Positions 35,675 to 64,000 of a stretch of DNA of 64,000 nt are shown in pieces. The DNA is from Okamejei kenojei. Lineage: Eukaryota. The translations under genes and the position numbers were made by a program. The DNA lies in contig CM069164.1 in the NCBI GenBank assembly GCA_035221665.1, positions 16,058,001 to 16,122,000 on the forward strand, in the 5' to 3' direction. The notes below the pieces were generated by a model that worked only from the letters and a program-made list of their open reading frames with translations, was not told the origin of the DNA and did not search any database. Each line of letters starts with the position of its first letter. Position 1 is the stretch's first letter.

Positions 35675-36065
35675 AGATGCTGGAATATTGAGCAAAACAA
35701 CAAAGTGCTGGAGGAACTCAACACTTTTGGGTTTTATAGTCCCTCTAGAAGGGGCGTGGCCTTCAGGAGAGATAATCTCAACATTTTTTAAACACTAATA
35801 ACTTACAGAGTCAGGCAGCATCTGTGGAGAGTTTGGACAGATGATGTTTTGGGTCAGGACCATTCTTTAAACTGGTAGAAAGAGGGAAGGGGAGGGATGG
35901 AGCAAGAGCTAGCAAGTGATAGGTGGACCCACGAAGGAGTGGTTGAAATGGTAGAGTTTAATAAAAAAGGAATAAAATGTGAAGCCAAATTCAAGTGGAT
36001 AGTGACTGGGTTCTCCATCTGGCCCTACCAGACAGAACACAAGTGTTGGGCAAAGCGGTCAGCAA
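35675..36065 (-). mobile_element. Penelope-like relic with an 88-bp foreign insertion
   Basis: tgcagatgctgg...gctggaggaactca / gtcaggcagcatctgtgg pLTR end. Confidence 0.65.
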
Positions 36066-39400: not shown

Positions 39401-41707
39401 CCAGCTTTCTTTCAGCTCTCAACAAATCTTATTACTACCCAAGAACTTTCCTTCATCTCGCACGCATCCAGAAACAGGGACTGGCTGCCTGAGCAAAGCC
39501 AGGTTGTTGGGAAGGTCAAACATGGAATTTGCAGAGGGAGAAAAACTCCCAGTAATTTGCAAATTCCAATCAACAAAATCAATTCCATTCAGCCGTCCAT
39601 TGAACTATATCTTTGCGAGTTGAGATTTGAAAAAGATTCAGGTCTGTGACTACCGGGGCTTTCCTGACACTGAAACTAATGACATTTTATGTTAAGCAAA
39701 GGAACAAGTATGCTACTTCATTGGGAGGTGCGTTTGAGTTTTTCCAGAAATATGAAAGGACATTTTAATCTGGGCCAAAAGTTTAATTCAAACCCCAGCT
39801 CAAATACTCTGAGAGGTGGATTTGGAAAGAAGGTCAGGGCAAGTTATTTTTGCAAGGACCTGACAAAGTTCCTCAGCTCAGGAGCAAGGGAACGTGTTCC
39901 AGAGAAAGGGCAGAGAGAATTGGCAGGAAACATACCTATGTATTACATTTGCAGAGCTACAGTCTGGCCAGTGTGTTGGTGGGTGAGTGAGGATGCAGTG
40001 TTGAAATACTAACTGCAGTTCATTAATCAGCAATTTGTTAATTTACATTTCTCTCCCCAGTGCTGACAACTGCTTTCATATTGCACCTGTAACACCACAC
40101 CGATCATCACCACATCAAACATTGGCAGTGAAATGAGGAAGCAGAACTCTGGAAGTCGAAGCTCCAGCTTCCATATGAGGAGCCCCTGAGACTCTGAACT
40201 GTCTAAGCAGTAGTGCCAGGGTCCTTAGCAGTGTTTGATTGCAGGCCAAGAATCATTTATTCATCCAACTGGCTATGAGACAGTTGATGAACAACCAATC
40301 CACAGGGCTTGTGACTATTGGTGAAACTATCAGTGATGTGTCTGCCTGGTATTGACAACTCTGAGCATTTATCGAAGTCCGGGGAAGAGAGAAAGTTCTT
40401 TGCTAAGGAAGAAATCCATCTTCATTTTGTATTGGTTATCATCCCTTTCGACTCTTAAACCTGATGCAGAGTCTCAAGTCGAAATGTTGACATTTCTTTC
40501 CCTCTATAGATGCTGCTCAACCCACTGAGTTCCTGCAGCATATTGTTTGTAAATTCTGTACTAGGGAACGTCTGAAGTAGCCTCCCTCTATAATTAGGGA
40601 TTTGATAACATGGGTGCCTCCTCTTGAGCCCAGTGTACCAGTGGAGAGGGAAAGAGCAGGGCACTGCTTCATGGGGACAGGGCAGCAGCTGCAACTCCTC
40701 TCACTTTATCTGATTAGCCTCCAATCTCTGCTTATCTATCTTTGTAAAGCAGAGTTGGTAATCCTGCAGGTGTCAGAGGGCGAGTGAGAAAGGAGACTCT
40801 CACTTTGCTGAGTTAAAAGGCCCTTTATTGATAATATGAAGCTGTTTATTAGGTTATTCTGTGACATGGGAAAGGGTCAGATGGATGGCGAGTCGACCCT
40901 CCATGGAATCACTACTGGCTGGACATAAACACGGTAACAGGATCAGAGACCAGACTCCGTGCCCATCCTCTTGAACATGCAAATATATGAATTCAGAGCT
41001 GGAGCCCATTCCATCCCACAAGCCTCTGCCACCATTCAATAATTCATGGTTGATGTCCCCTCAACAATGTTTCTGCTCTTTGCTTATCTCGATCTGTCTA
41101 CTTCTGCCTTGGTAATATTCAATGACCCAGCTTCCATCTCCCTTTGAGGAAGAGAGTCCCAAAGACTCTCAATTCTATGAGAAAATAAAAATTGCACCTC
41201 TTCTCTGTTTTAAATAGGCAACCCCTTGTGTTTAAACACTGACCCCAGGTTCCAGATTCTCCACGAGGAAACAGTCTCTCCTCCCTGGCAAAGCCCGTGA
41301 AGATCTAAGGAATGGGAAAGAACAAGACTGGGAGAAATGAGGAATGATCTTAAAATCTTTTACAATTTATTGCTATTTATTAATGGTGTGTTAAACCTCC
41401 ACTGAAATTCCAGTTAAACCTCTGTCCAGTGCAGTGAGAGTCTTTCACAAAGTCAGCCTGGCTGACCACTTGACACAACGAACTTTGTGGAAAAAACAAT
41501 ACATTGTTTTTGGTTAACATTGAACTAACTTTGCTATTACACCAAAGATTTTTTTTGGCTTAATATTCTGATGGGAAGTTTAGCCACTTTGAATTTTTAA
41601 TCATAATTCCCTAGTTATAAATAACGGTAAACAGCACAAGATTGCATCTCATTACGGGGACCTGACCTGACCTGTTCAGTGTGAGTGATCTGTTACTCAT
41701 GGCTCAC

Positions 41708-41810: not shown

Positions 41811-43550
41811 CTTTTGGATAAACATTAAATAAGAAATCACACCAACATATTTCAAAATATTTATGTCAGGGAACTTTCAACATTCATTGAACCAAATATA
41901 TACAAAAATGGAAATTAGGAATCGGAATAAAACCACTGAACTGACTCTACCCTCAAATCACATTTGCATCTATCCCTGGTTTTCTCTCATCCATGGAAGA
42001 GAGTTCCAGAGGGTCTGAATGAACAATGTTCACCTTGTTTTGGACTTAAATGGATAAACTCTTAACAGTAACCTCCTAATCCCCATAGGAGGAAACGTGC
42101 TCTCCACATCTGACAAGCACCCTTGGCAATCTCGCTCTCTCTCCCTCTCCCCCCCCCCCCCCCCCCCCTCCTCCTCTCCCCCTCTCCCCCTCCTCTTTCT
42201 CTCCTCTTTCTCTCGCTCTCTCCCTCCCCAAGATGTATCTGATTAAAGTGTGGGAGCTCCTACTGTAACCAAAGGAAGGCCTACTACAGAACATTCACAT
42301 GTCAAAGTGCCACAATCTGTTTCACATGAGTGTTATCAAGCAGAATTTGAGTCCAAAAGCTTGGCTAAAGAGGTAGGTCCATTTAAGGAGCTAGAGGTAA
42401 AGGGTCAGGGAGAGATTTCCAGAGTCTGGGCTAATTAGCAAGGAGGTGGAAGAGAATAAATAAAGTGTTAACAAATTGCTCCCATAAAAAAGTGAGTCTG
42501 GGGAATAAGTAATTTAAATGAATTGGGGGATGAATGAAACAAGTGTGTAGGATCAGTCTTTATGATAGAAAATACAAGAAATAATACCAGTAGCTCAATA
42601 TTGGGAAATAAAAGGCAAGGAGCTGAGGAAAAGTACAATAATCAGGCCTGTGGGACTGAGCAATAAACTGAACAGCTTCTTGGTCCTGACAGACTTCATT
42701 CTAGGATCTTAAAAAAGTGATTGTTCAGATAGTTGATGCACTATTTTTACAAATGTTCCAAAGTCACTGGGAAGGCTCCATGGGATTGGAAATGGAAAAT
42801 GTAACTCTTTTATTCAAAAATGGAGGAAGACTGGACATAAAAAAATTACAGCCTGGTTAGTTCAATGTCTATCATTTGGAAAATGTGGAACCTGTTGTTA
42901 AATATGTTAAAGCTGGGCATTTAAATCAATTCAGGGTCATCGGGCAATGATTTGAAGAAGGGAAATTGAGTTTGACTGAGTTATTCGAATTGTTTGAAAA
43001 AAATAACTGGTGTTGTGGATGAATGGGAAATAGGGGCAGTACTATCCAGAAGGCTGCATTACAGGTTATGATCGGAAAATAAAAGCTTGTGATGTAGGAG
43101 ATAACATAATTGCATGAAGATCGGTTGGTGAAGAGAACCGTAGGGGAGAATAAATGAGTTTGTTCCTGGTTGTCAAGGTGTAAGGAATGGTGTGCCATAG
43201 GGACCAGTGCAGTGCCCACAACATTTCACAATTTAGATAAATAACAGGTGGAATTATTGTGTGAAATTTTCAGATGAAAAATGTTTAAAAGTACTTTCCA
43301 GAGGGAAGAGATATTGAATGTAGGGAAGTCATGACCACTTATGTAGGGCATTGGCAAGACCAGTGCAGTGCACATTTTTGGTTTCCTTATCTAAAAAGAA
43401 CTTCATGCTTTGGAATCAGTTCAGAGAAAATCTACGACGCAGTGCCTGCAATGTTGTCTTAAAGAAAGGTTAGATAAAGCAATTCTCGTATGTATTGGAC
43501 TTTAGAAGAGTGAGAGGGATGTCAATGGAAACATACAAGATGCTGAGGGT

Positions 43551-43750
43551 AGACACAAAAAACTGGAGTAACTCAGCGAGACAGGCAGCATCTCTGGAGG
43601 GAAGAAATGGGTGACATTTCGAGTCAAGGCTCTTCTTCAGACCTGAAACGTCAACCATTCCTTCTCTTCAGAGATGCTGCCTGTCCCGCTGAGTTACTCC
43701 AGCTTTTTGTGTGTATCTTTGGTTTAAACCAGCATCTGCAGTTCCTTCTT
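43551..43750. mobile_element. Palindromic Penelope-derived repeat
   Basis: About 43551-43620 is the reverse complement of about 43645-43715, around the junction cttcttcagacctgaaac. Confidence 0.85.
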
Positions 43751-44039
43751 TTATTTTTTTTTTCAAAATATACTTTATTCAAGTGATAAATATATACAAT
43801 ACATGAACCTTGCGTAAAAATCCATCCGACATTTTCGGAGGCTGTACAATACCGTTTAGACATTTCTTTTCCCCAAATTTCCACAAATCAGTCCCCCACT
43901 CGTGCCACAATGGCGTGGGATACCTTCCCTTATTTTTGGGGGGCGTCTCCACCATACCGTGCCCCCCATGTCCAGCGGCGGAAGGGCCTTAGACTGTTGC
44001 CCTCCCCCACCGAGCCTTGACGTTGGCTGCACCGAGCTT
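43751..44039 (-). mobile_element. L1/Tx1-like LINE 3' end
   Basis: - strand reads KLGAANVKARWGRATV*, then a 3' UTR, AATAAA and poly(A). Confidence 0.6.
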
Positions 44040-44708
44040 ACACAAGATCCTGAGGGGTTTAATGGGGTAAACACGGACAAGTGAGAGAATCTTGAACTTG
44101 GGGTCACGTAAATGGGTCCCCATTTAAGATAGAGTGGGGGTGAATATTTTTCTCTCAGACGGTCAGCTGTGTTTGGAATTCTTGTTCTCAAAGGGTGGTG
44201 GAGGCACAGTCTTTGAATATTTTTAAGACTGAAATGGTATTAATAAGCAAAGGATTGAAAGGTTGCCGCTGATAGATGGCCTGTAAAGCAGAGGTTATAA
44301 TTAGATCAGCTGCGATTTTAGTGACTGGTGAAGGGATCTGAGAGGCAGAATGCTTCCTGCTTGTAATTTGTCAATCTCTGAGGCAATGTCTTCATTCTCT
44401 TTGTTTTTTCCTGCAATCCTTCTCAACAAACATATAATGACATTGTGTCCTAATGCCCCATAGCTGAGGACATTTGGAGTGTAAGGCTTAACAACCTGGT
44501 TGATTCAAACTGAGAATCTATTTCATTTTCCATCTTATCAATAGGAAATGTGACCATGATGGATTGTAGAGATGACCTTTACTCCATGAAACCATGATTC
44601 TTGTCGTAAATTTCCTAAAGCCACTTGTCACATGAACCAAAAGCTATATCTGCTTTGCATGGTGTTTCTACATATTAATTACTGGAATCTGCCTAATTGG
44701 ACTTTTAC

Positions 44709-44762
44709 CTTGAGCCTGGTATTATCACTTGGTTCTTCATCTTTGAGATCAATATCGTTCTT
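44709..44762 (-). CDS. SLC24A1: SLC24A1 54-nt loop exon
   Basis: tttctctttcttgcag acceptor, aag|gtaaaa donor, phase 0/0; KNDIDLKDEEPSDNTRLK. Confidence 0.75.
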
Positions 44763-46079
44763 CTGCAAGAAAGAGAAATTGAAAATAATTCACCATGCAA
44801 ATGTTTCATAATACTGACTTCCATAAAGATTTGAATGGCAAATGGTGACAGATTAGATCTTTGGATACAATCCCACCCCCATTAAGACTTTCTAAATATT
44901 CATAAGCAAGTGGCCATTATTTCATTAATGTTCACTTGCATGATCACACCTGGGCAGTAGAGTTTTAAGAAACAATACAGAGCTAAGAACAAGGATATCA
45001 GGACTGGTGCTCACAGACTTGGTCAATGAGGAAGCTTCCGAGGACACTCTTAAAATCGGAGACCAAGCTAGAGCAGTTTGGGAAGTGTTCCAATTACATT
45101 TGAAAATAAGATCATTTTCAGGAGACACAAAAACACTGGCGTTGCCGGAATCTGGAGTCAAAACAAAATTGAAGTGCTGGAGGAACAAGTATTTGATGTG
45201 TGTTGGGAAATGTACAGATGACATTTCTCTTTGGGATCTTTTTTTCGTGTTTATTTTCAGTCTTTCTACATAACTGTCTCCCTTTGCAATCTGAACAGAA
45301 CTCTCACTCAGAAAACCAGAAACCACCTCAAACTGATGGGTTTGAGTCAGGTCTGCTGGTTAATTGGATAGAGGAAGGTCAGTTATTTTTTACCATGTTG
45401 CTTTAGTTTAATGTTTTTAGTTACTTCCAGGTGTTCTACGTGTTTTAATTAATTTTAGATTTTTATCAGAAAATAAAGTAATTCTTAATCTTTTTCAGTA
45501 TTCAATTACATTTTCAAAGAACTTGAAATTACTCAAAAACAAAGCTCCACCCCCATCTTTGCTGCCTGTCAAACTTCATCTGTGCTTAGAGGATGGGCCT
45601 CTCTATGACTCCACCCATACAGATATTCAGACCTGGCTGTGTGAATGGCGGGGCAGGCAGTTAGTGAGCCCAGCCCTCTCTCGCTGGCCCAACAAATGTT
45701 GGGATGGGATGGCAAGCAATGATTCCAGGTCATGGAAACGCACGAGACAACACTAACACTCTGCCAACACTCTAATTCCTCTGGCAGCACTCACCCTCAA
45801 AAACCTCTCTTTCGATTAATCCCTGTTTCTACAAATCAAAGGAATAGTCATGAGCACACCTGCGCCAATTTTTATATTGGCTACAGGGAATAGTCCTTGT
45901 TCCAAATTTACTCTGGCACCTATCCCCAACTTGTTCTCTGCCACTGACAGCTGCGTCCTGCACTCGCTAGGATTTTATCATCTTTTCCACCAACCCTGCC
46001 CTCAAATTCACCTGGTAAATGGTCCAACACCTGTCTCTATATCTCCTCTCCAACCTCAATCCAAGGAAAATTAAGTCTT

Positions 46080-46380
46080 TGAAGGAGAGGCAGAGATTCA
46101 AGTGTACTTCCTCTATTTGGTGACCTCATCTACAATGGTGAGACCAAGCGCATACTAGATACGGTTGCCCTGACCTGACGGCGGACATCTTGAGCTTCCA
46201 GTTACATCTCATTTCAACTTCCTTTCCCATTTCCACACCCATCTTTCCTCAGTTGTCCATACCCACATTTCTTCGCAGCCAGGTTGCGGACAAAAGCAAA
46301 CTAGAAGAACAACACCTGATATTCCACTTGGGAAGCCTACAGCCCAATGGTATGAATGTTGATTTTTCAATTTAAGGATC
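46080..46380 (+). mobile_element. Penelope-like GIY-YIG relic
   Basis: ggtgagaccaagcgc (GETKR), LPV..HFN, KLEEQHLIFHLGSLQPNGMNVDF. Confidence 0.8.
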
Positions 46381-48879
46381 CCTGATCCTATTTTGTTCCT
46401 TTCCCACTCTTTCCAATCCACACGGGGTCTCTCTCCCTTTGCTCACTTTTTTCATCCCTCCCCCTCACCTCTCTCATTACCAAGATTCAACTCTCTCCCC
46501 CTCCTGGTTCCATTTGGCCATCATCATCCCTTAACTGGTTCCACCTATCTGACCTCCTTATGTCAGCTATCTCCCCTCTACACTGTCAGTCTTAATGCAA
46601 TGTCATGACCCAAACGGTCTGCCGTGTACTTCCTCCAGTCTCTTGGCTCCCGATTCCTGGATGTTCCCTGGATGCGGTGGGTCCTTTCTTTGCAATCTTT
46701 CATTGGGGAAGTTTTCTGTACGTCACTACGAGATGTTAAATAGGTGGACAATTTCCAGGTGGTTGAGCGGTCACAATGATCATGCTTTCTCTTTTAGGTA
46801 AATGGAGGGGTGATATTTTACACAAAATATGCACAAAGGGTATGGTGAACTAAATACTTAAAATTAAGGCCGTGTTTATCCACAATACTTAATCTCTCTC
46901 GTTTCACAGGCTCATGTGCAAAGCTCCACAGCAATTAGTTTAAAATGGGTCAAGGTAACACAGGATTAATCAGAGTGAATTATGAACACTCCCTGTGAGA
47001 TGAGCTGCCGCTGGAGGTCACTCAAGGAAGGAGAGCAGACACACATTGCCACAGCCTGGGACATTTCCTGTCATTACTGTGACAAGGGAACCATTTTAAA
47101 GAAAAGGTAATGACTGAGACTGTCAGCAGACTGTGGTTACTGACAGAATTGAATGAGCAGTGTGCATGGAGGTTGCAAAATAATGCCAATGGCATACAAA
47201 TTTGCTGGTTGCTCTAAAGTGTGTATGCTGTTGAGAAATAATTTGCAAGTGGACTCAGAACAGAAGTTCATTGTGGAGTCTATCAAACACATTGTCATGG
47301 AGGTGGAGTTGGAAGCGAGGTTACCAAAGCCATCTGTTGGAACAGCCAGTGTTCCAGCTCAACTTCTCTCCACCATAATGTGTAATTCCAACCTTTAGAC
47401 GTATAGTAGTTTGAAAGAACAAAGGGTAGAGGAAGAATGACTGACTCCTTGGGCATGGGATTTATGCCTGCTTAACAAAAGTACCACACATCTTTGCAGG
47501 AAATGAAGAATGCATGTGGCTGGGAAAGGGTCCTTGAGCAGATTTGGTGACTGATGAGGCAACATATTAGCTGTATGAAATAAGTGCTGGGCATACTCAG
47601 CAGGACAAGCAGTATCTGTGCCACAGAGTTGTGTTTCAGGTTGAAGCTCTTTGTTATAACTGGGAAAGAGGGAGACCAAGTCAACAAACCAATTCCTCAC
47701 TTCCCCAGTTCTGATCAAGTTCTTTGACCTGAAGCATTAACTCACGTACCTTTTCCACAGATTCTGCCTGAGCTGCTATGTGTTTCCAGCATTTTCTGAT
47801 TTTTTTTTAAATTTCCCTTTACGGAAGAATGCTGGAACTGCTCAGCTACTTGAACAATGAACAATGACAGAGGAAAGGCTGATATTACAGCTGAAACCTT
47901 CCAGCAGAGCTGGCCAGTCCTTATACAGAAGAAAAGCACGTTTTTCGAGATGATTAAATTCATCGTTGATTCCAAAGAGCTGCAACATGCCCACGGGGAA
48001 GATGAGGTGTTGTTCCTCAAGCTTGGGGCCTTGGAGCAGTGCACGAAGCCAGAGATTGAATAATCAGGATGGGAATGGATGGAGAAAGCTGGTGACAGGG
48101 AACTAGAAGCTCAGAGTCACCCCAATGATGTTCTGTATTTGCCATCTGTGTGACTTCTAATGTCCTCCACCACTTTGCCAACTGGCTCATCTTCACTATG
48201 GATGTCCAATCACTCTCTATCTCCATCCCAGACCTCAAGGGTCTGAGAGCTCTTCTGAATCAGTCCCCACAATTAACTACTTCTCCTTCAACTCTACTCA
48301 CTTTCTTTAAATTAAATGTGAAGTGAAGTGAACTTGTACTGCCTGAGCTACTTGTGTCTTTATCTGGGAGACAGTCCTTGTTTCAGTCCTATTTTGATCT
48401 CTACTCTTATTCTAATGCACTGGTGTGGCTTACTTTGCAACTTCTGTCAGTTCCAACAAGATTCCAATACCACACTTATTCCCCACCCCTCTCCTTTCAG
48501 CCCTCTAGTTATGACTCTCTGATGTGTTCTTCCATCCCCATCTGCCTCTCCCTCATGCTACTTATCCATGTAATTGCTGTTGCACCTCCCATAATTTCAT
48601 ATTTTCCCTTCCTAACATCCAGGGACCCTATCTGTCTTTTAGATAAGACAGCGATTCTTGCACATCTTGCATTTGAGTGCACCAGTGGAAAACTAGCGCT
48701 CAGACTGCAGGGGCAGACATGAGCATACTGTTCCATGCCACTGAAATTCTTCATTCCACTTCACTCTGACCCCTTTATCTGCGGTCTCTGCACACGCAGT
48801 TTCACTAATACACACCGCAGTCACACTGATTGATACACACTCAGTCTCTCTCACTCACACACACACACACACTTACTGA

Positions 48880-50140
48880 GGGTGGGCGAGGGCCCGGGTG
48901 GGGGAGGGGCCGGTGCGGCGAGGGGGAGGGGCCGGGTGGGGGAGGGGGAGGGGCCGGTGGGCGAGGGGGAGGGGCCGGGTGGGGCGAGGGGGAGGGGCCG
49001 GGTGGGCGAGGGGGGAGGGGCCGGGTGGGGCGAGGGGGAGGGCCAGGGTGGGGGAGGGGCCGGGTGGGGGAAGGGGAGGGGCCGGTAGGGCGAGGGGGAG
49101 GGGCCGGGTGGGCGAGGGGGAGGGGCCGGGTGGGCGAGGGTCCGGGTGGGCCAGGGGGGAGGGCCGGGTGGGCGAGGGGGAGGGGCCGGGTGGGCGAGGG
49201 GGAGGGGCCGGGTGGGCGAGGGGGAGGGGCCGGGTGGGCGAGGGGGAGGGGCCGGGTGGGCGAGGGGGAGGGCCGGGTGGGCGGGGGAGGGGCAGGGCCC
49301 GGGTGGGCCAGGGGCCGGGTGGGCGAGGGGGAGGGGCCGGGTGGGGGAGGTCGGCGAGGGGGAGGGGCCGGGTGAAGGAGGGCCCGGGTGCGTCGAGGGG
49401 GAGGGGAGGGGCCGGATGGGGGAGAGGGAGGGGCCGGGCGGGTGGGGGGAGGGGCCGTCGCGGCGAGGGGAGGGGGAGGGGGAGGGGCCGGTGCGGCGAG
49501 GGCCCGGGTGGGGGAGGGGGCCGGTGCGGCGAGGGCGAGGGCCCGGATGGGGGAGGGGCCGGTGCGGCGAGGACCGGGTGGGCGAGCGGGAGGGGCCGGG
49601 TGGGCGAGGGGGAGGGGCCGGTGGGGCGAGGGGGAGGGGCCGGGTGGGCGAGGGGGAGGGGCCGGTGCGGCGAGGGGGGAGGGGGGTTCCGGGTGGGGGA
49701 GGGGCGGTGCGGCGAGGGGGAGGGGCCGGGAAGGGAGGGGGAGGGGCCGGGTGGGGAGGGGGAGGGGCCGGGGTGGGGAGAGGGGAGGGCCCGGGTGGTG
49801 GGAGTGAGGGAGGGGCCGGGTGGGGCGGGGGAGGGGGAAGGGCCGGGTGGGGGAGGGGGAGGGCCCGGGTGGGGGAGGGGGAGGGCCGTTGCGGCGAGGG
49901 GGAGGGCCGGTGCGGCGAGGAGGGAGGGGCCGGTGCGGCGAGGGGGAGGGGCCGGGTGGGGGAGGGGCCGGTGCGCGGAGGGGGGGGGGGAGGGGGAGGG
50001 GCCCGGATGGGGGAGGGGCCGATGCGCGGGAGGGGGGAGGGGGAGGGGGGTGGGGTGGGGAGGGCTCGGAGTGGGGGAGGGGGATGGGCGAGGGGGGGGG
50101 AAGAGGGGCGGGGGAGGGCCCGGGTGGGGGGGGGGGAGGG
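48880..50140. repeat. G-rich minisatellite, about 22-bp unit gggtgggcgagggggaggggcc
   Basis: Directly visible tandem array with variant units; explains the overlapping Pro-rich and Gly/Arg-rich ORFs. Confidence 0.95.
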
Positions 50141-50154
50141 AGGCGCGCTCTCAC

Positions 50155-51377
50155 CTTGACCCCGTGGAGCATGGACACCACTTTGACCACGTTGCTGTTG
50201 TTGGTGACCTGGCGCTTGAACAGCTGCTCGATCTCGCCGTTGTACTTCATGAAGCCGACATAGGTCAGGTAGGCGAGCAGCAGACACAGGCTCTCCCACC
50301 AGCAGATCATGTTGTCCAGGAAGAAGACGATGAGCATCAGCAGGTCGACGATGTAGAAGGAGACGTCGCGGAAGAGCGGCCACCAGCTGAGGTACAGGAT
50401 CTCCCGGGAGAAGATGGCGCACATGCCGATGACGAAGAGGATGTTGAAGACGGCCGAGCCCACGATGGTGCCGATGCCCACGTTGCTGTGGGAGATGAAG
50501 ACCCCGATGAGGGAGGTGAAGAGTTCTGGCGCCGAGCCCCCGGCGGCCATGAAGGTCGCCCCCGCCACGTCGTCCGAGATCTTCAGCCTCTCAATGATCA
50601 CTCCCAAGGACGGAACAAAGAACTCATCGCACACCAGCGCCAGCGCGATGAACATGTACACCATGCCCGTCACATGCAGCAGCACCCAGCCCCGCCGGCG
50701 CTCCTCTAGGCTGAATACATCCACCGGGTACGCGCTGCCGGTGTGGACGGGGCCGGGCCGGGGCCGGGGTCGGGGGGAGGCTCCCCGCTGTTGTCCGGTG
50801 TGAAGGCTGTTGCCGTTGAGGGCGCCGGCACGATCTCGTTGCCCACCAGGATACATCCCCTCAGTCTGGGCTTCACCGACGAGGCCGGTTCACTGCTGAT
50901 GGCGGCGGCGCTGGTCTGGTTGGGAGGAGCCAATGTAGGAGGGGGCCAGTTGGTGGAGTCTCTGGTTAACGGGATATTGGAGCCGAGGGTCCCTGGCCGA
51001 GGGCTCTTGGTCCCGGTGGGACCGGGGTAGGGGGTGCTGGTCCCGTGGGAGTCAGGATGGGGACTCGGGGTCCCGGAGTGAGCGCTTCTGGTCTCCGCAA
51101 GCCCGGAGTCGGGGCTGCTGGTCGTGGCAACCCCTGGCTCGGTGCTTCTCGTCCCGGGGAGCCTGGGGTGTGGAGTCTGGGTCCCGGAGTTGTCAGATGT
51201 TGTGACCTGCAGCAGTCTCCTACTGTAAGGGAAGGAACCGCCTCCGGCCCCCGCTCCCCACAGCGATGATCCCGGCCACGTTCCGGTGGGGAACCGCGAG
51301 AGAGAGCAAATGGCCAGCGCTGCGAGCAGGAAGACGACCCGGCTCCAGCTCAGTCTCCTCCTGCGCCCTGGAAACAT
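50155..51377 (-). CDS. SLC24A1: SLC24A1 large first coding exon (N-terminus to first TM cluster), with apparent 1-nt frameshift at about 50755-50757
   Basis: ATG at 51377 gives [18 protein letters not shown] (NCKX1-like signal/TM0); after the frame change [19 protein letters not shown]...[19 protein letters not shown]...; aag|gtgaga donor; upstream acceptor ttcttctgcag ends at 51729. Confidence 0.9.
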
Positions 51378-54300
51378 CCCGTCTCCGTACCTCAACGCTC
51401 CAGTGTCCAATGTTGGAAATTTTAGACCAAGCCCATCAGCGGTGCCCCGGCTCCTCGCGGTGGATGGGGAGATGGTCCTCGCTCCTGGATCACCGACTCA
51501 TTTCCAGGGACACAGCGTCGCCCAACCCTGGGCTTCTCCTTCTAAAGAGATTTGGGAGCAGGTGAGCGCGGCAGTTTTAAGCCGGGATCTGTAATCAGAT
51601 CTGCGCAGCTCGACCGCCCTTAACCTGAACCTGATCCCCCGGCGGGCCAGACCCGAGCACCGACTAACCAGGGCGCCAAGCCGATGTTAATCAGGCTCCC
51701 GACCGACCTGCACAATCTTGACCCATTTCTGCAGAAGAAAGAACAAGTCTGGGACCGGTGTCTATGGAAACTGAAATAATTTACTCTCTGAATACTCAAG
51801 CAATTCTAATCAGATGTCATTAAATATTCGGTGAATCTGATTAAGGATTCCCACCGACCGGTCCTTTCCCTTCACACTGCCCTGTCCTGGACCTGGGCCG
51901 ACAGTGGACGCATCGGTGCACGGTCGTGGCTTGAAGCTTCGGAGGGGGTGGGGGGTGGAGGGGGGATCGCGGGGGGGGGGGGGGGGGGGGGAAGAGGAGG
52001 GGAGGGAGGGAGGGAGGGAGAGGGGGGGGAGGTGGAGGAGGGGGGAGGTGGAGAGGGGGGAGGGGGGAGATGTTCCAGCCTCCATACTCCGGACTGAGTT
52101 CGGCGACGATGGCCATTGCTTTCGGTCCGTAAAGGGTCCCGCAGCGCCGCGCACATTAAATATTAAAAAATGGGAAATAGTGGAGCGGGTTGGGCGAGGG
52201 TTCATGAAGGGGAAGCACGCCTAATGGTGTTCTGATGGTGTGACTTGTGGAACGGATAAGGGGATCCAGTGGATGTGGGGTATTTTGATTTTTAGAGGGT
52301 CTTCGATAGGGTCCCAAGTTGGAAATTGATCAACAAGGGGTTGGGAATATTAATGCACTAGTGTGGACTGCCAGTATTCCCACCAATTCCCCGGCAGCAT
52401 ATTCCAGGCACCTGTCGAAAATAAATTTCCATCAAAACATAAATCCTCCCCGCTCTTGCCTTAAGGCTACGTCCTCTAGTATTTGCCACTTCCACCCTAA
52501 GGTTAGTGACTTTGACCATCGACCCTACTATGCCTCTCATCTTTATATAAACCTAAGGGAAAACAATTAGTCTGTCTAACTTTTCCTGATCATAAATAAT
52601 ATCTAATGCAGGCATCGCCCTGGCGAACCACTTCTGTCCCCTCTCCAGAAACCCCACAACCTTCCTGTGATGTGAAACCAGAACTGCCCGCAATACTCCA
52701 CATGTGGTCCAACAAACGTTTTATACAGCTGCAACGTTCCCCTCCGCTTTTTCACTTAATGTCCCCACTGCTGAAGACAAGAATGTGGTACCTTCATTAC
52801 CTGTCCAGCCATGTTCACGACCCCCCTGTTCAATGTCCTTAAGTGTCGAGGCCTTTACTGTACATTTACTTCTTACATTTCATCTTTCGAAATGCAACAC
52901 TTTTCATTTTTTCGGCATAAACTTCTTCTGCCAATCCTCCACCCATATTTCCAACTGGTGTGTATCCTGTTGCATTCTTTGGCAATATTATTCACTGTAC
53001 AAAACACTGCTATTTTTCACGTTATCTACAAAACTTTCCAACCAACACATTTATACTCACTTCCAAATTATTTATATATTCATATATATATATATAACAT
53101 AAACAACAGAGATCCCAGCACTGGCCCCCACCTCACAGACCTCTGGGCAGAATATCCCCCCCCTCTCCTCCCCCTTCTCTCCTCCCCCTTCTCCTCCCCC
53201 CTTCTCCTCCCCCTTTCTCCTGTCCCCCCTCTCCTTCCCCCCTCCTCCCTCCCCTCCCCCTCCCCCTCTCCCTACTCCCCCCATCCCCCTCTCCCTACTC
53301 TCCCTACCATTACCCACTGTCTTCTATGAAAGAAGAATTTTGAATCCAGTACATCATGGCACCGTGTGTCTTATACCTCGGACCAGCCTAGCATGAAGGC
53401 TGCTCATCTGAACAAAAGGATGTACTAGTAATCGGTGGAATGCAGCAAAGATTCACCAGGGTTGTCCAGGGATGTTAGGTTTGCGCATGAGGAGAGATTT
53501 CGTGGACTCAGACTGCACTTTCTGGAGTTTGGAAGAATTAGAGGTGATTTCATGTAAATGTAACACATTCCTTCGAGGCCTGTAGTTGATAATGGGGGGG
53601 GGGGGGGGGGGTGCGTTTCACTTGGCTGAAGAGTCTTGAATCAGAATAAGGGCTCATAATCGTCCCACCCTGGTCATTCCTTTTCCCAGCGTCCTGCAGG
53701 AGGTTTAGAAACTTGAAAGCGCCAGACACAGAAACAGCTTCTTCCCTCCGTTATCAGGCTTCTGAACGGCCCTTCTATAAAGCCAAGATACTGTTCGATT
53801 CATCCCTACCCCACTGAGGACATTGCATTTTGTGTAAGGAACCGATGCGCTGCAATGCTAAAAATTATATTCTGCAACTCTGTATCTCGCCCGTTGCTCT
53901 GTCTTTTGTACGACTTTGAACTGATTACAACTATGTATGGTATGTTGGATCTGTTTAGATAGCTTGCCAGCTAAAGCTTTTCACCGTTCCTCGCTATTTG
54001 TGGTAATAATAAACTTAACCTAAGGGGTAAACGGGTTAGAACCAATGAGAGGAACATTTCTTCATCGGAGACTGGATATATTTTTGAAATTCCCAACCAG
54101 AAGGGCTGTGGAGGCTTGCTTGGTCCTTGGATTCATTCAACGTTGAAATCCGCAGATCTTCTATCGATACTCTGGCGTTAATTAAATCAAGCGATTTGGG
54201 GACAGGGCGGGAAAATGGTGCCTGGATCAGCCATGATCTTGTGGATCCCCGGGAACTACATGGCCTCCTGTTCACAGATGTCCTTTGTTCTTATTGCGAT

Positions 54301-54789
54301 CAATCAATTATTACTTATTTTACAGACTCGGGAAAAGACGGTGCTGAGCCAGAGGGCTGTGGAGCATTGCAGGCCAGGTGCGAAGCAGTGTAGTCCCTGG
54401 AGACTCATTACAGTCCCGGCGTGATCTTTCCCCCGGGGGACAGCTGGACGACGCGCCGACGGTTGTTTGGACGCCTCGCTTCTTTCCACTGCATTTTATT
54501 GCAGGTCTGTCTCTCCGGAACCGAGTTTCAGCACCTCGGACAGAGACCCGGCTCCAGCCGACCCAGAGCACGAGTCCAGGACTGTGGGTTGGTACCGCGA
54601 ATGAAGGGGGAGAGGGGGCTAAGGAGGGGTCCCATCCTCTCTAGTTGATTGATGGCTGGCTGGTGGCTGTGTCCGGCCAGAGCTAGAGACTGCAGTTCAC
54701 TCCATGATTGATTGCTGGTAAAGAACATTTCTTAAATAAAACAGATAGGATTGTTGGTATCCACGCTCCAGGCAGCCCCTGGGAGACCC

Positions 54790-55460
54790 GGTGGTGGAGT
54801 AACACTCTCCAAATAAATGTGGGTCGGGCTGCCGAATTGTACATGTCTACCAAACATAAAACCTTTACTTATAATAGGATTAGTCATTGGGAAATCCATA
54901 AATTAGATTTAACGTTCATAGAGCGGGATCTTTTGAAGAATATCTGGGTGCGAGGATTGACCGGATCGGAAGATTTAGCGAGAGCCCAGTGCAATTAGCC
55001 ATCTGGTTAGACAAGACCAGGCTTAAACCTAATGAGAAAGCTAAGCTTGCTAAAGAGTTCGTGATATCTCTATTTTATCCTTTAATCTTGGACGAGGTTT
55101 CGCAAAACACGTCGTCAAGTTTGGATGGCGTTTCCATAACGTTTGTCAAAGATATATTACATCTCCCAATTAGTGTTGGTGATTGTCTTTTGTCCTGCAG
55201 GGTTCGTAATTGGGCCTTGATATCCCTAAATTGTTCATCGTTGCGATTATTAGAAAGTTAGCGTTTAAGAAAATCGACCTTATGTCCTTTAGAACATGAC
55301 AGGGGTTAATATCCGTGGATGGGAGGAGGTGTTCTTTCAGTCAACTATCCATGAAATGCAAGTTTTGCTCATTATAAGGATAGTCTCAACTCCAACTGGT
55401 GAATTAAGCGGTCGAACTTGTTTTATTAAGTCCAACTTGAAAGGTAAAGGTTTTACAGAA
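54790..55460 (+). mobile_element. Degenerate R2-superfamily (RLE non-LTR) reverse transcriptase fragment
   Basis: Frameshifted pieces LQINV..., YLGARID, LKPNEKAKLAKEF...LDG...FVKDILHLP..VGDCLL and KGKGF fall in the order of R2 RT motifs 6-7 and the thumb. Confidence 0.55.
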
Positions 55461-56624
55461 GAAACTGCATATGCTGGAAAATCGAGGGTACACAAAATGC
55501 TGGAGAAACTCAGCGGGTGCAGCAGCATCTATGGAGCGAAGGAGATAGGCAACGTTTCGGGCCGAAACGATTAATATTCGATTACAGATATCTGGCTGGA
55601 TGATAGACTTTAGGGATTTGTAAAATATCTTGATAGTTCCTCATCGGACTCTGTTGAAAGGGAAGAGGCAAAGGGATACACGTGCCTTGCAAACTAACGC
55701 CATTTGGAAGGCAGCACCTGGGGCTCCCAGGGGAAGACTACCCTGACCACACGCCGGGCCTCGTCCCCGCGTCCCCTTCCTACTCGCTGGGGCACCCGTT
55801 CCTGCTTTAGAAATTCGCCTGGTTCCGTGTCCCGCACTCTTTTTACATTTACCGGGGCATTGTTATAAAGAGCAGTACAGCACAGAAAGAGGCCCTTTGG
55901 CCCACAATGTCTGTACCGATTATGATGCCATTCTAAATGTACCCTACCTGCCTGACATGAGCCTCTACTCCCTGCCAGCTCATCCACGTGTTGGTCTAAA
56001 TGCCTCTAAAAAGTTGATATTGCGTCTGCTTGCATCACATTCCCTGGCAGTAGAATCCAGACGCCCACTCCAACTAGAGGCACTGGATCACTCGGGGTTT
56101 CGCATCTTAATCCTGTGCCCTCTAGTATTTGAGAATCAGAGTCGGGTCTAGAATCCCTCTAGTTCCCCACGCTGTCTTTAAACATAGAGCTGATAGTAAT
56201 AATTATCATTCTACCGTGTAACGTTCACACACAGCTAGTCCGGTACCAGGTGTTACGAGTGTAGAGAATTAAAGGAGTTTGATTGTAAAACAGCAGCGTG
56301 GAAGCAAGAGTGAACAGGTAAAACTCCTGTAATTCGAAGCATTAGTGTTGCCGGACAAACGGGTGTTTTGAATTAGTGCTCCATTACATCTTGAATTCAC
56401 TATTCTTTCTTTAAATGTTGCACTGAAGAATAACACATGTTGTGGCTAGAAGGAGCGTCGGACACAGACGCGGGAGAGTTTAGCTGAGCGGGAGGTTCAC
56501 TCCCCGGCTTCTTGGAGCCCAGGTTCGGCTGCAGAGAGCAGGAAGGCCGCGAGGGGGCGGTGGCGTTGCGCGGGGAGTACAACGAGCTCCGAAATCTCCG
56601 CTGACCCAAGCAGAATGTGGCAAA

Positions 56625-56812
56625 AGACAGACTCAAAGTGCTGGAGTAACAGCGGGTCGGTTAGCATCTCTGGAGAAAAAGGATGGGTGAAGTTTCGGGT
56701 CGGGACCCTTCTTCAGACCTGAAACAGCACCTATCCATGTTCTCTAGAGACCTGCCTGACCCACTGAGTTACTCCAACACTTTGCTATAACTCAGCATCT
56801 GCAGTTCCTTCC
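56625..56812. mobile_element. Palindromic Penelope-derived repeat with a hammerhead-like core (- strand)
   Basis: Inverted arms around cttcttcagacctgaaac; - strand 56719-56686 reads ggt-CTGAAGA-a-gggtc-cc-gaccc-GAAAC-TTC-acc. Confidence 0.8.
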
Positions 56813-56919
56813 TATTGCAGACCGTGGATAAAGATAAGTACAGTCCATTTAAAATATAAACACGGGAAAGAAATTCCAGACACCTAGGCAACAGCCTTGC
56901 CCCCATTTAATCTTCAATT

Positions 56920-57309: not shown

Positions 57310-58240
57310 AACAGGTACTTCACCTAGAAAGGTGGAAGAGAGATTGGAGCAGGATAAAGCTTGTCGAGTAATAGGTAGATACGGGTGAGGGGATGATCGA
57401 AGGCCAGTGATGAAAAGAGAAAAGATGTGATAAGGATTGAACAGTTGTGAATTGTGAAGCTAGAGGATGGAAGTAAATGGGAGGAGAGAAATAGGTGCAA
57501 GTCCAGGTGGGCCGGGGTTTAGTTATACACATAAAAACGGAGAATTCGATGTTCATATGGTTGGGCTGTAAGCTATCGAAGTGGACTATGAGGTGATGTT
57601 CCTCCAGTTTGCATGTGGCCTACCTCTCTGGTGATGGAGGAGGCCCAGGACAGAAAGGTTAGTATGGGGATGGGAAGAGGAGTTAAAATAGTTAGCAACC
57701 AGAAGATCCAGCAGGCTTTGGTAGACCAAGTGCAAGCGTTGCCAAGTTCACGCTTGGACTTGTAGATGTATAGGAGGCCACATCCAGAACACAGAATGCA
57801 GTAGATGTGGTTAGAGGAGATTCACGTGAACGTCTGTCTCACCTGGAAGGAATGCTGGGGTCTCTGGATGGATGTGAAGGAGGAGGTATAGGGACAGGTT
57901 TACATCGCCTGCAGTTGCAGGGGAAAGTATCAGGGCAGGGTTGACTTGGGTGGCTGGAGATGAGTGAACCCAGGAGTTGCGGAGGGAGCGGTCTCTGTGG
58001 AAGGCGGAAATGAGTGGGAATGGGAAGATGTGACTGGTGGTGGAATCATGTTGAAGGTGGAGGAAATGTTAGAGAATTCCTTCCCCGCCCCCTCCCCCCC
58101 ACCCCCATCACAATCAGTTTGAAGAAGGGTCCGACCCGAAACATCATCTATCCACGTTCTCCAGAGTTGCTGCCTGAGCCGCTGAGATACACTTGCACTT
58201 TGTGTCTTTTGTAAATGAGCATCCGCACTTCCTTGTGTCT
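57310..58240 (-). mobile_element. Penelope-like (Poseidon-type) fragment with an inverted pLTR
   Basis: - strand remnant TFPCNCRRC...SFQVRQ.F...SSN.IYCI.C..CGLLYI; oppositely oriented pLTR at about 58110-58240 (ttgaagaagggtccgacccgaaac). Confidence 0.85.
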
Positions 58241-61149
58241 GATCCCATTTTAACAACTGTCGATTCTAACCTCTCCCAGATTTAAAAAAAGCTCCCATCT
58301 CAAACACAGGGCAGCTTACAGGAAATACTAATTCGCCCACGCCATTGCCACTGTAGACGAATTATAACCCTGTCTAGAAGGGAAAAAATACTTAAAATCA
58401 CATGCAGTGCATAATTTTTCGCAGAGACCATTGGCTGCTACTAAACTGCTGCAGGCACCATTCCAAAATTAAATTCCCAAATGCAAAGCATCTGGGCTCC
58501 TGGAATCTACTCCAGCCAAGTTCCTTCACAGGCAGAAAGAGAAACCGTCAGGAAGTGAAACAAATGTAAGAAAGCTAATTCTCACACCAGCAGTGGTTGC
58601 TAAATCTTTGTTAGTGTGTCCAGGCCCCATCCACCAGACTGGGAGTGAAGCAGGTGGGCACGGTCATTAAACTGAAAGGGACCTCTGGGCTGGCGAAGTG
58701 AGTTGTAGCTGGAGAACAATTGTTGACCTTTCCTAAATTTTAACCCCCACAGAATGCACTGCGCCTTCTTAAACAACTGTCTCGATTTTACATTAGGTGC
58801 AAAGCTCCATCAAGAACAGATGCAGATGGACTCGGCTTGGTTTTAAGGGAAATTTAAATCATCGTCCCACCACAGCAATTCAGAATCTACTAAGACATCT
58901 TACCCCACTCACAGGATGGACATCTCAAGATGAGGTAGTACCTACGATGGCCTTAAGCTTAAATGGAGAAACTGGATCAGTCATGGAAACAATGTGCACT
59001 TTAAGTGATAAGTCAGACTCATCAGGAAAGAAAATGGTACCCCCACGCAGTTAAAAGAAAAACTCAGACATCATTGTTAAGCCAGCAGCCAACAGTGCTG
59101 TCATCATGGGCAGGAAACAGCACTTGCTGGAAACACATTGGCAATCAAACAATAGAAAAAAACCCACAGTGCTGGCCAAACTCAGTGGATCAGGGAGAAT
59201 CTGTGAACAGAATGGACAGATAACATTTTAGGTCTTTAAAAGGAGGCGCAGTCCTCTTTCTTACAGTTTGGCTTTCTTCCCAACCCATTGTTCAAGCGCT
59301 TTTGATTGCAATATGCGCCTTAATTTAGTTCAACAAAGAAACTGACAAGTTGCTAAAGAACTTCCTTTTCCTTCTTCCTTCTATGGAAGAACCCTCTTCC
59401 TTCTTATGGAGCATCCGCACCTCAAATGCTGTGTGTCCATTCCCTCCAAAGATTGATTTCCTCCATCACTTTATGTTTTGCTCAAAATGTCAGCTTTTGA
59501 GCAAAACACAAAGTGCTGGAGGAACTCAATGGGTCAGGAAGCATCTTTAGATTGACAGTTTCTTGTCCAAACAATAGACACTGCAACAAACTAACTAAGG
59601 CCATCTATAAAGAGACACAAAGGGAAAATTGAGTGAGACACAATTAGAATATTACAATGGGAAACAGCCCTGAGCCAGAAAATTCTGATCCATGGTCCTC
59701 ACAGTCCAGTCTCCAAACCACCATCTCCTGTCCCATCTCCCATCCGATCTCCACAATCCTGTCTCCACACTCGTGCTCCACACTCCTATCCCGTCTCCTC
59801 CCATTTCCATTTAAATATGTGGTAGCCTGTTTCTCCAGCCCTGTTTCTGTAGCCCTTATTAATGTTTGCAGTTGTTGCGATTTGGCTGAAGGGTCCCCCG
59901 AACCAAAGTGGAGGCGTCAATATGAATGAGACTCATTGTTGTAGACCCATCTGATCTGCACAGCCATGGAAATGCAGGCATTGGACCAAACCTGGACTGT
60001 TCCTCTGCTAATCATTTGCAGACTATAACCGTATGATGCAGACATTGGGAAATGCTGAGCTATATGCAGTGTACAGAGTGGGTGTTGGACCAGTCTGTGT
60101 CCTGGGATTTTCCTCCCACATCCTAATTAAACATTCCTCTTACACACAGCTGCTTCAAGAGTGCAGCCAATATAGCTTCCAACATCTTTGGTTAGGTCTT
60201 GTTTGTAAATTTAGTTTAGGAGAATTGTCGGTAAATTATTTTAGCAGAAATAATTGTTGAACATGAGAGATTGACTCATATTGAATCATTGTGAAAGCAC
60301 CATTGAACCACAAGAAAGAACATAGCACAGTAGGAATACACGTCGAATAGTAGAAATATATGTACAATAGAACATGAACAGGCCTTTCAGACAACAAAGT
60401 CTGTGCCAAATATGATACCAAGGCCATCGCTGGTCTATCTGCACATAATCCATATCCATAATGCCCAGCCCAAAGTCTATTCAATGCCACAATCATACCT
60501 GCTTCAACCACCAATCAGTGCTAGAGTGCTCCAGGCACTCACCACCCTCTGTGTTAAAATAACTTGCCCCACACATCTCCTGCATCAATTGCGACTTGGT
60601 AAGTATGATTGTGATACGAGTAATTCTGAGGTGGCAAAGCTTGGTACTACCGTTCCCAGAAGGATTCTGTACCATAATTCAGATCACTCTTCAGGAAGAA
60701 AAACTATTTTTATGTCGAGAATCCAAGAAATAAGCTGAACTAATGTCTAGTATATGCTGCTTTGCCCACATGAACATTAATGGGCAGCCTTGCTCCAAAT
60801 ATGCACAAAAATGAATCCTAGTCACCACAACCTTGGTGAGGCCAGACAACTAACCGCATATTGTAATTATCTAATGGAATCAATGAGTCATGTTTTTACC
60901 TGCAAAAAAACACAGCAGTTTATGATTTTATACAAAGCTGTTGTGCCTTTTCTGAGTTGTATTGTGCTTCTTTTGCTCATTTTTGACAAGAGCCCGTCTT
61001 TAATAACATATGGTTAGTTTGACAGTCCAGTCACATCAGTTTGTTGGAAAAGTTTAATCATTTCCCCCCATATGTTTTTTATATTTCTCATACACATTTA
61101 CAGTTTCAATGTTTAAGCATTTAATTATACTGTTTGCAGTTCACTCACA

Positions 61150-62993: not shown

Positions 62994-64000
62994 AAAATAG
63001 TAAGATTAAATGAGAACTTACCAGTTTGAAGTTTGATCTTTATTTTATGAGGAGTTGCTTTGAGGGATTTCGTGAAGACCCCGCCAGCACGCATGCGCGA
63101 CATTCTTCAAAGCTGCGGTGTGGAATCACAGAACTATCCAGAAATGACTAGTATTGTAAGATTGAAGAGACTCTATATACCAGTTGACCTTATAGTAGAT
63201 GGTTGGGAGTGGAGGGCACGAAATCCCTCATCGCAACGCCTCATAAAATAAAGATCAAACTTCAAACTGGTAAGTTCTCGTTTAATCTAACTATTTCATT
63301 TTGGTCACGTGAGTGACTTTGTGAAGATTTTAAAGCTCTGTGATTACATGCCCTGGATCACGTCCATGCTCACACATGGCCACAATATTGATGGAAGGAG
63401 TATATTAACGTATTTCAGACTTGAAGAGCTGAAAAATAATAATGTTTATTAATCACAAACAAAAAAAACCCTCATACGGGGATAAATGTATGTTGCTGAC
63501 CAGCACTCAGCATGGTCTCCCCAAACATAGCAGGAGCGGTCACAGGTTTGTTGTAAAACCTCTGGAATGTAGCTTCGCTAGCCCAGCCCGCTGTGGCGAG
63601 GATATGGTCCATGGGCACCTCCATGGTCCTCGCCGCTGATGTGGATGCAGCCCTGGTAGAATGGGATTTAAAGATATTGATATCAATACCTGCTGCATCC
63701 AATATTACCCTGAGCCACCTGGAGATCGTCTGCACCATCACCCTGTGATGGGGTTTCTTATGGCTGATCAGCAGGTACCTCTCCGTTCCCCTGAGGGTAT
63801 GCGTCACTTTAATGGAGTGACGGATATAGGTGGCTAAGCAGAGCCTCACATCAGCGGAGTATGCCGGAAATATCAGCTGCAGCCCTGTGAACCCAGGTCT
63901 ATGTTGCATCAATAGAAGATTATTCTATCAGGGGTAGAGACCATATTATCCATATTGATCTTATGTAAGGTCTGAACCCGCTGAGCTGATGTTAGGGCCA
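62994..64000 (-). mobile_element. DIRS1-like tyrosine-recombinase retrotransposon, 3' end (continues beyond window)
   Basis: ORF 63472-63912 with TISRW, HSTR, ILATAGW and F.RFY YR motifs; about 80-bp inverted repeat 62994-63074 / 63217-63298 fits a terminal repeat plus internal complementary region. Confidence 0.88.

What the first reader, a model, noticed from the sequence alone, without database searches (positions are those of the whole stretch)
43551..56812. Two palindromic Penelope-derived elements share an identical central junction and a minimal hammerhead core
Seen: insertions at 43551-43750 and 56625-56812 are inverted duplications of the same pLTR end, joined at the same sequence cttcttcagacctgaaac, although their arms differ in sequence. 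On the - strand the second reads GGU-CUGAAGA-A-GGGUC-CC-GACCC-GAAAC-UUC-ACC. That is the CUGANGA/GAAA/NUH core, a stem II, and a GGU/ACC stem I that closes across the junction. Established: Penelope-like elements carry minimal type I hammerheads in their pLTRs and often insert as inverted copies. Inference: either a distinct non-autonomous hairpin retroelement family, or recurrent template switching at the ribozyme. Both copies are on the SLC24A1 sense strand; the first is intronic and the second is probably in intron 1.
Basis: partly seen in the sequence, partly recalled or inferred. Interest (0 to 1): 0.7.

Follow-up and report, generated by a model that had tools for sequence, protein, structure and literature searches.

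The report
Recurring joint in Penelope hairpin stubs
The two hairpins are real, gene-less leftovers of a common Penelope-type jumping gene, and they share a joint most likely because each was stitched afresh from two short copies of the element's end at the same three-letter overlap; they are not one family, and their self-cutting RNA motif is predicted to be folded shut.

Summary
The junction 18-mer sits at 43632 and 56708 and at 1,647 places genome-wide. Both elements are head-to-head pairs of the pLTR end of a Neptune-type Penelope-like element, with target-site duplications.

They are not one hairpin family. The joint occurs in several pLTR subfamilies, the two arms of a copy share subfamily letters, and no left/right difference is fixed. 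It is the second commonest of seven inverted joints counted (148-3,668 hits each). All of them lie at short overlaps near the hammerhead's first base, where most short copies begin; none piles up at the cleavage site.

Best reading: both target ends prime short cDNAs, one runs off the RNA's 5' end, and the two join at a GAC overlap. The tail lies on the trimmed arm in 32 of 34 scorable copies, which excludes simple fold-back for most. The hairpin out-competes the hammerhead fold by 15-19 kcal/mol.

The layout is published for Penelope-like elements, and this scan found such stubs before on other DNA. Expression and cleavage are untested.

The parts
43535..43549 (+). Element 1, left target-site duplication
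   Evidence: 14 of 15 bases alike with 44042-44056
43550..43642 (-). Element 1, inverted arm without tail: pLTR +2 to about +95, reaching the inferred RNA 5' end
43640..43642 (.). Element 1 joint: 3-nt GAC overlap shared by both arms
43640..43749 (+). Element 1, tailed arm: pLTR +19 (3' strand of stem II) to about +127
43610..43643 (-). Element 1, decayed minimal hammerhead motif (stem II mismatch); predicted buried in the hairpin
43750..44039 (-). Later poly(A)-ended repeat fragment inserted into element 1's tail (LINE-like by its end; family not identified)
   Evidence: 91.5% match to a copy in L064; TSD resumes behind it
44042..44056 (+). Element 1, right target-site duplication
56610..56629 (+). 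Element 2, decayed left target-site duplication (overlaps the arm end)
   Evidence: 15 of 20 alike with 56817-56836; 3 of 300 random pairs score as high
56625..56718 (-). Element 2, inverted arm without tail: pLTR +2 to about +95
56716..56718 (.). Element 2 joint: the same 3-nt GAC overlap
56716..56812 (+). Element 2, tailed arm: pLTR +19 to about +130, with a 12-nt internal deletion
56686..56719 (-). Element 2, minimal hammerhead motif; dimer palindrome ACGU changed to ACUU; predicted buried in the hairpin
56817..56836 (+). Element 2, decayed right target-site duplication
49900..51497 (-). Host gene coding exon, Na/Ca-K exchanger type (context only)
   Evidence: PF01699, E 9e-31; ORFs

Best explanation
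Each element is a gene-less, TSD-flanked pair of Neptune-type pLTR ends joined head to head at a three-base GAC overlap, most likely built independently during one insertion event. Shown: the anatomy, the parent element, the two outer end points (about +95 and +130 of the pLTR), the pile-up of inner ends at -5 to +10, and the spectrum of short-overlap joints. Inferred: (1) The enzyme nicks both target strands and extends both 3' ends on pLTR RNA, one from the far start site (giving the tail) and one from the near site. (2) The RNA begins at about the first base of the hammerhead, probably a transcription start, so the cDNAs are short run-off products of uncut RNA. (3) The run-off end ...CAGAC of the untailed cDNA anneals to GTC in the stem II part of the tailed cDNA, whose overhang is trimmed. 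The same joint therefore recurs wherever this pLTR sequence is copied. The hammerhead is a passenger and is predicted to be locked in the long hairpin.
For: Count: 1,647 genomic hits, about 1% of at least 132,579 copies of the shared word. Parent: Neptune-type ORF with RT, CX4CxxC linker and CxxC-YIG nuclease upstream of the same pLTR; one full pLTR-ORF-pLTR copy, L227. TSDs of 8-18 bp in 33 of 72 copies against 0.4% in shuffled pairs. In 53 of 72 copies with two usable arms, both arms share subfamily letters at 7 columns (for example 12 against 2.9 expected), no column has a fixed left/right difference, and distance is 0.11 within copies against 0.15-0.18 between. No two of the 72 share both flanks. 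Outer ends cluster at 85-107 and 125-133, like the two RT start sites and two-strand extension shown in vitro for the anole element (PMC11167929). Inner ends: 68 of 176 solo copies and 44 of 79 inverted arms start at -5 to +10, and only 8 of 176 in the next 30 nt; the longer arm ends at -4 to +5 in 39 of 50 palindromes. Joint counts: 4-nt centre 3,668; GAC 1,647; TGAAAC at most 829; CT 664; internal 5-nt stem II 545; GA 212; AGA 148; plus 560 direct-repeat jumps at the same GTC. The tail is on the trimmed arm in 32 and on the run-off arm in 2 strictly scored copies. Hammerhead fold costs 18.6 and 15.0 kcal/mol in the two elements, median 25.9 in 56 junction copies, against 9.1 in 30 parental pLTRs.
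Against: No RNA data: the RNA start is inferred from where copies begin. A cap signature is weak: 2 exact extra G among 6 TSD-checked G(-1) copies. The sequence at +1 also looks like a splice acceptor. Later deletion from the 63-nt-centre palindrome would give the same product and the same tail side (9 against 3 in that class), and GAC copies look slightly older (arm distance median 0.082 against 0.034, P = 0.12). Overlap length alone does not predict frequency, since AGA is 11-fold rarer than GAC. A looser alignment puts the tail on the run-off arm in up to 11 copies, and 38 of 72 could not be scored strictly. Loci came mostly from contig 1 and from exact-word searches, which favour young copies.
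Confidence: 0.72

Rival explanations
1. The joint is secondary: symmetric palindromes with a 63-nt centre later lose 17 bp between two GAC repeats by slippage or hairpin-centre repair.
For: The product is identical by construction. The main orientation of the 63-nt class would give the main tail side (9 against 3), and GAC copies trend older (P = 0.12).
Against: The shorter 7-bp deletion between AGA repeats is 11-fold rarer (148 against 1,647). The internal 5-nt stem II joint is 3-fold rarer (545). Several GAC copies have arms 0-3% apart.
Confidence: 0.13
2. Self-priming: one cDNA runs to the RNA end, folds back at GAC/GTC and copies itself (the model proposed for rotifer Penelope junction palindromes).
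For: GAC can pair with GTC 14 nt away in the same strand; self-priming is proposed in PMC3846280 (passages). It could make the few copies whose run-off arm has the tail.
Against: In 32 of 34 strictly scored copies the second arm carries a tail that the supposed template arm lacks. Second arms stop at the RT start sites and do not run on into target DNA.
Confidence: 0.06
3. A distinct non-autonomous hairpin retroelement family: the joint lengthens stem I from 2 to 3-4 bp, makes a better ribozyme, and the hairpin is copied as a unit.
For: Stem I is 4 bp in 32 of 56 junction copies against 2 bp in 27 of 30 parental pLTRs. The GAC joint is over-represented against AGA. Other palindromes are amplified as passengers of a larger repeat.
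Against: The joint occurs in several subfamilies that also exist as solo and ORF-linked copies, with no fixed arm-specific letters. Outer ends vary and the tail is on either side. No shared flanks. The hairpin beats the hammerhead fold by a median of 26 kcal/mol. Element 2 lacks the dimer palindrome.
Confidence: 0.05
4. Ribozyme cleavage, or RT stalling on the ribozyme structure, sets the joint.
For: All joints lie within the 35 nt of the motif. RT pausing at stem II cannot be excluded for the trimmed arm.
Against: Both arms keep sequence 5' of the cleavage site (+31/+32). Only 5 of 255 unselected arms begin at +32 or +33, and the +36 to +45 bump is largely a 54-bp satellite. In vitro, uncut RNA is the main substrate (PMC11167929).
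Confidence: 0.04

Closest known systems
Insertions of endonuclease-bearing Penelope-like elements with inverted pLTR, one-sided tail, junction palindrome and TSD (PMC3846280 and PMC8557442, passages read)
   Same: Head-to-head pLTRs, a 30-40-nt tail on one side only, TSD of variable length, overlap or palindrome at the joint.
   Different: No ORF between the arms; the whole unit is about 190-200 bp; present in thousands; joints fall into countable short-overlap classes; the tail side argues against self-priming.
Poseidon element of the green anole, PAc (PMC11167929, abstract and main text read)
   Same: Two internal RT start points a tail apart, shortly behind the hammerhead and the ORF start; both target strands cut and extended; uncut RNA used.
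   Different: The parent here is Neptune-type (CX4CxxC linker). The ATG lies 20 nt behind the cleavage site (L227), not before it. The paper does not describe two cDNAs joined head to head.
Minimal type I hammerheads of metazoan PLE pLTRs (PMC4209133, parts 1-2 of 4 read)
   Same: CUGANGA/GAAA core, extra base before stem II, G-C first pair, palindromic 15.2-16.2 in the parent, weak stem I; pairs on opposite strands were noted.
   Different: Here the motif sits at the tip of an 80-90-bp hairpin that is predicted to block it; both window copies are decayed.
Non-LTR retrozymes (bioRxiv 10.64898/2026.07.22.740005, part 1 of 5 and passages read)
   Same: Gene-less, pLTR-related, carry a type I hammerhead.
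   Different: Retrozymes are head-to-tail tandem arrays with a hammerhead in each unit; these are single head-to-head units with one whole motif.
LINE-1 twin priming (recalled; start of the PMC2837659 abstract seen)
   Same: Two target ends prime cDNA; inverted join with microhomology; TSD.
   Different: L1 inverts different parts of one RNA; here both arms copy the same short segment from two fixed start sites.

Membership tests
EN+ Penelope-like element (derived fragment) | Arms are the pLTR of an RT + GIY-YIG element | tested here: met
   The pLTR follows the nuclease ORF in most of 30 loci and flanks the ORF in L227; Pfam GIY-YIG E 0.0017, below the curated cut-off
EN+ Penelope-like element (derived fragment) | Inverted pLTR, one-sided 30-40-nt tail, variable TSD | tested here: met
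Neptune clade | [quoted passage not shown] | tested here: met
   CNRRRCNTC and C..C..YIGET in the translated copies
Neptune clade | RT groups with Neptune references in a tree | not tested
Minimal type I hammerhead | Core CUGANGA, GAAA, NUH and stem II | tested here: met
   met in element 2 and the parent; element 1 has a stem II mismatch; no Rfam hit at gathering score
Minimal type I hammerhead | Covariation in stems | tested here: inconclusive
   248 copies: pairs kept 80-90%, no recurring double change; only one-sided U-A to U-G subfamily changes in stem II and stem I
Minimal type I hammerhead | Active fold reachable in its context | tested here: not met
   15-19 kcal/mol above the hairpin ensemble, against 9 in the parent (prediction)
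Minimal type I hammerhead | Self-cleavage as monomer or dimer | not testable with these tools
   needs a bench assay
Non-autonomous family copied as a unit | Shared ends and arm-specific diagnostic changes | tested here: not met
   (72 of 1,647 examined)
Non-LTR retrozyme | Tandem head-to-tail units, each with a hammerhead | tested here: not met
   single head-to-head units
Non-LTR retrozyme | Circular RNA | not testable with these tools
   no RNA reads could be laid

The most novel reading that the evidence does not exclude
These stubs are a genome-wide fossil record of an undescribed step of Penelope-like retrotransposition. A Neptune enzyme dimer makes two 'strong-stop' cDNAs from a capped RNA that starts at the first base of its uncut hammerhead, and the two have fixed roles: the near-primed cDNA runs off the end and supplies the joint, while the tail-bearing one is trimmed. 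The frequency of each joint would then be predictable from the RNA's 5' end and the overlaps on offer, and would replace self-priming as the source of head-to-head pLTRs.
Probability: 0.4. Interest if true: 0.6.

Novelty: new variant of a known kind. Interest (0 to 1): 0.3.

Why it matters
How Penelope-like elements form their inverted ends is open. PMC3846280 proposes self-priming, while PMC11167929 shows two internal start sites and extension of both strands but leaves the later steps untested. A genome with over 100,000 short copies gives countable predictions: where the RNA starts, which arm is trimmed, and which overlaps are used. An in vitro reaction can check these directly. For the host gene, the two inserts are probably neutral; at most they give about 90-bp dsRNA hairpins in its pre-mRNA. 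They are not evidence of a new ribozyme-bearing mobile family.

Tried and rejected
Database searches: Rfam at gathering score found nothing in the window. Pfam found nothing on the broken nuclease fragment and a below-cut-off GIY-YIG match on a long ORF. The plasmid collection had no match. The earlier-notes look-up by sequence showed nothing.

RNA: no RNA holder listed. No reads were laid, so expression, editing, circular RNA and the place of exon 1 stay untested.

Ideas dropped: (1) The joint as a splice product: it lacks a GT donor in register. (2) A second pile-up of ends at the cleavage site: the bump was largely a 54-bp satellite. (3) A cap-copied G: G is the commonest non-C base at -1 among solo copies (about 25 of 52 by my tally of the list), but only 2 of 6 TSD-checked cases are one exact extra G, so this is weak. 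(4) Tail side and age as a test against later deletion: not discriminating. (5) 'Longest overlap wins': refuted by the AGA and stem II classes. (6) Passenger amplification of the GAC class: 5 pairs among 72 share one neighbouring repeat, and none shares both flanks. (7) Both motifs on the host's strand: one in four by chance, and either strand folds into the same hairpin.

Literature: searches for this gene-less joint spectrum listed no paper that describes it by title or abstract start. The library lacks most subscription papers and Repbase, and I saw no supplements, where such elements may be shown.
Full report
Observation. The 18-mer is exact at 43632 and 56708 (chance 0.01). Both elements are inverted duplications of one repeat end and are 72% alike. 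Element 1 is longer than reported: a 290-bp poly(A)-ended fragment splits its tail, and its 15-bp target-site duplication (TSD) closes at 44042-44056. Element 2 has a decayed 20-bp TSD (the control used smaller windows than the element 1 search). The host gene is an Na/Ca-K exchanger type on the minus strand. Element 1 lies between its coding exons. Element 2 lies 5 kb upstream of the first coding exon found, next to a G+C-rich patch, so intron 1 is not shown. The gene name and the organism (skate-like according to earlier notes of this scan) were not tested.

Parent. Longer copies continue upstream through a pyrimidine-rich UTR into an ORF with RT motifs, a CX4CxxC linker and a CxxC-YIG nuclease. 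These are the Neptune marks given in PMC8557442 (12 passages read). L227 is a whole pLTR-ORF-pLTR copy, broken by frameshifts. Numbering from the A of AGTCTGAAG as +1, the hammerhead spans about +2 to +34 and would cut after +31. In L227 an ATG at +54 opens the frame. The family is huge: at least 132,579 hits of one 15-mer and 127,454 first-look nuclease candidates.

Family or recurrence. The junction has 1,647 hits, so about 31 windows of this size should hold two. I examined the first 70 listed plus the two window copies. Of these 72, 33 have a TSD of 8-18 bp, against 0.4% of shuffled pairs. In the 53 with two usable arms (19 dropped as short or poor), both arms share subfamily letters at seven columns, far above expectation, and no column differs between left and right consensus. 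Distance within a copy is 0.11, against 0.15-0.18 between copies. The same subfamilies occur as solo and ORF-linked copies. Outer ends fall at 85-107 or 125-133, with the tail on either arm, and no two copies share both flanks. So the joint arose many times.

Spectrum of joints. Among the first 50 of 4,173 palindromes with centres up to 60 nt, 6 have the 46-nt span of this joint (two of them one segmental duplicate), and 39 have the longer arm ending at -4 to +5. Genome-wide 18-mer counts are: 4-nt central overlap 3,668, partly passengers; GAC 1,647; TGAAAC at most 829; CT 664; internal stem II 545; GA 212; AGA 148. A direct-repeat jump at the same GTC has 560. The patterns differ in how many CpG positions are relaxed, so the ranks are rough. 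A joint is common when it uses an end at about +1 and has a 3-4-nt overlap; overlap length alone does not predict it.

Where copies begin. Among 255 unselected arms, 68 of 176 solo copies and 44 of 79 inverted arms start at -5 to +10, and only 8 of 176 start in the next 30 nt upstream. TSD-bounded solo copies agree. Nothing piles up at the cleavage site. The simplest reading is a second template population whose 5' end is at about +1. The TCAGT there resembles an initiator (consensus recalled; an Inr-like word in a rotifer pLTR is reported in PMC3846280). A cap-copied G is only weakly supported, and a splice acceptor is not excluded.

Mechanism. PMC11167929 (abstract and main text read) shows in vitro that a Poseidon protein cuts and extends both target strands, starts at two internal sites a tail apart, and uses uncut RNA. 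The stubs fit this: one arm starts at the far site and one at the near site. In the GAC class the trimmed arm carries the tail in 32 copies and the run-off arm in 2 (P 7e-8; 38 of 72 not scorable; up to 11 run-off tails by a looser alignment). A cDNA folding back on itself, as proposed in PMC3846280 (11 passages read), cannot add a tail that it lacks, so most copies need two cDNAs. Later deletion from the 63-nt class remains possible. Orientation fits it and age trends that way (P 0.12), but the rarity of the shorter AGA deletion argues against it.

Ribozyme. The motif is the known minimal type I hammerhead (PMC4209133, parts 1-2 of 4 read). The joint does lengthen stem I, to 3 bp in both window copies and 4 bp in 32 of 56 copies, against 2 bp in 27 of 30 parents. 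But the same bases pair in the long hairpin. Forcing the hammerhead fold costs 18.6 and 15.0 kcal/mol here and a median of 25.9 in the class, against 9.1 in the parent (in 3 of 56 the script matched a wrong motif). Element 2 has lost the ACGU dimer palindrome, and element 1 has a broken stem II. Covariation is limited to one-sided changes.

Known and new. The layout of inverted pLTR, tail, TSD and junction palindrome is in print. Retrozymes are tandem arrays and do not fit (bioRxiv 10.64898/2026.07.22.740005, part 1 of 5 and passages). My searches listed no account of gene-less stubs with a counted joint spectrum; supplements and Repbase were not seen. Earlier notes of this scan reached the same reading on other DNA. 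I had recorded mine first, and those notes are not independent support.

Verdict. A real, recurrent by-product of a known retrotransposon class, not a new family and probably not an active ribozyme. It has modest interest as a testable record of the insertion mechanism.

Noticed in passing
L167, L174, L257, L265-L269; L344, L347, L350, L361, L364, L368, L370: Some palindromes with 63-65-nt centres ride inside a repeat of about 600-750 bp that has short terminal inverted repeats (MITE-like; family label not tested). They are amplified as passengers: 7 of 40 sampled in the 63-nt class.
   Followed up: partly
L003, L005, L036, L037, L066, L169: A 54-bp tandem satellite made from pLTR +37 to +90, without the hammerhead.
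   Followed up: partly
L227:2699-6750: Whole but frameshifted pLTR-ORF-pLTR Neptune-type copy. The ATG lies inside the pLTR at +54, and a donor-like AG/GTATGC lies shortly behind the tail.
   Followed up: partly
L097:1364-1442, L114:1340-1435 (as oriented): Short +1 to about +95 pLTR pieces placed in direct orientation right in front of 5'-truncated nuclease fragments, the partial-tandem counterpart of the inverted stubs.
   Followed up: no
L271-L280: 560 direct-repeat duplications of the first 12 nt of the hammerhead at the same GTC overlap.
   Followed up: partly
window 43750-44039: Poly(A)-ended repeat fragment inserted into the tail of element 1.
   Followed up: partly
window 48830-50150: About 1.3 kb of low-complexity C/G-rich tandem sequence right behind the exchanger's coding exon. 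The exon itself is spread over two reading frames (50706-51497 and 48841-50889), possibly an assembly error.
   Followed up: no
window 56400-56620: G+C- and CpG-rich patch directly beside element 2; could be the host gene's promoter or first exon.
   Followed up: partly
window 3138-3227, 5741-5805, 27373-27452, 30884-30974, 35799-35867, 40461-40551, 55457-55561, 58117-58234, 59171-59551: At least nine further pLTR pieces of the same family; 30884-30974 is a solo copy with a 10-bp TSD.
   Followed up: partly
window 62995-63296 and about 63472-63924: An 80-bp inverted repeat with a 142-bp spacer, and a 150-aa frame that looks like a tyrosine-recombinase C-terminus (recalled, not tested).
   Followed up: no
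pLTR upstream edge, several subfamilies: All UTR types end in CCCTRAC, 0-4 nt, then CAG just before the hammerhead. The word is conserved across subfamilies, and its role (promoter, branch point or other) is unexplained.
   Followed up: no
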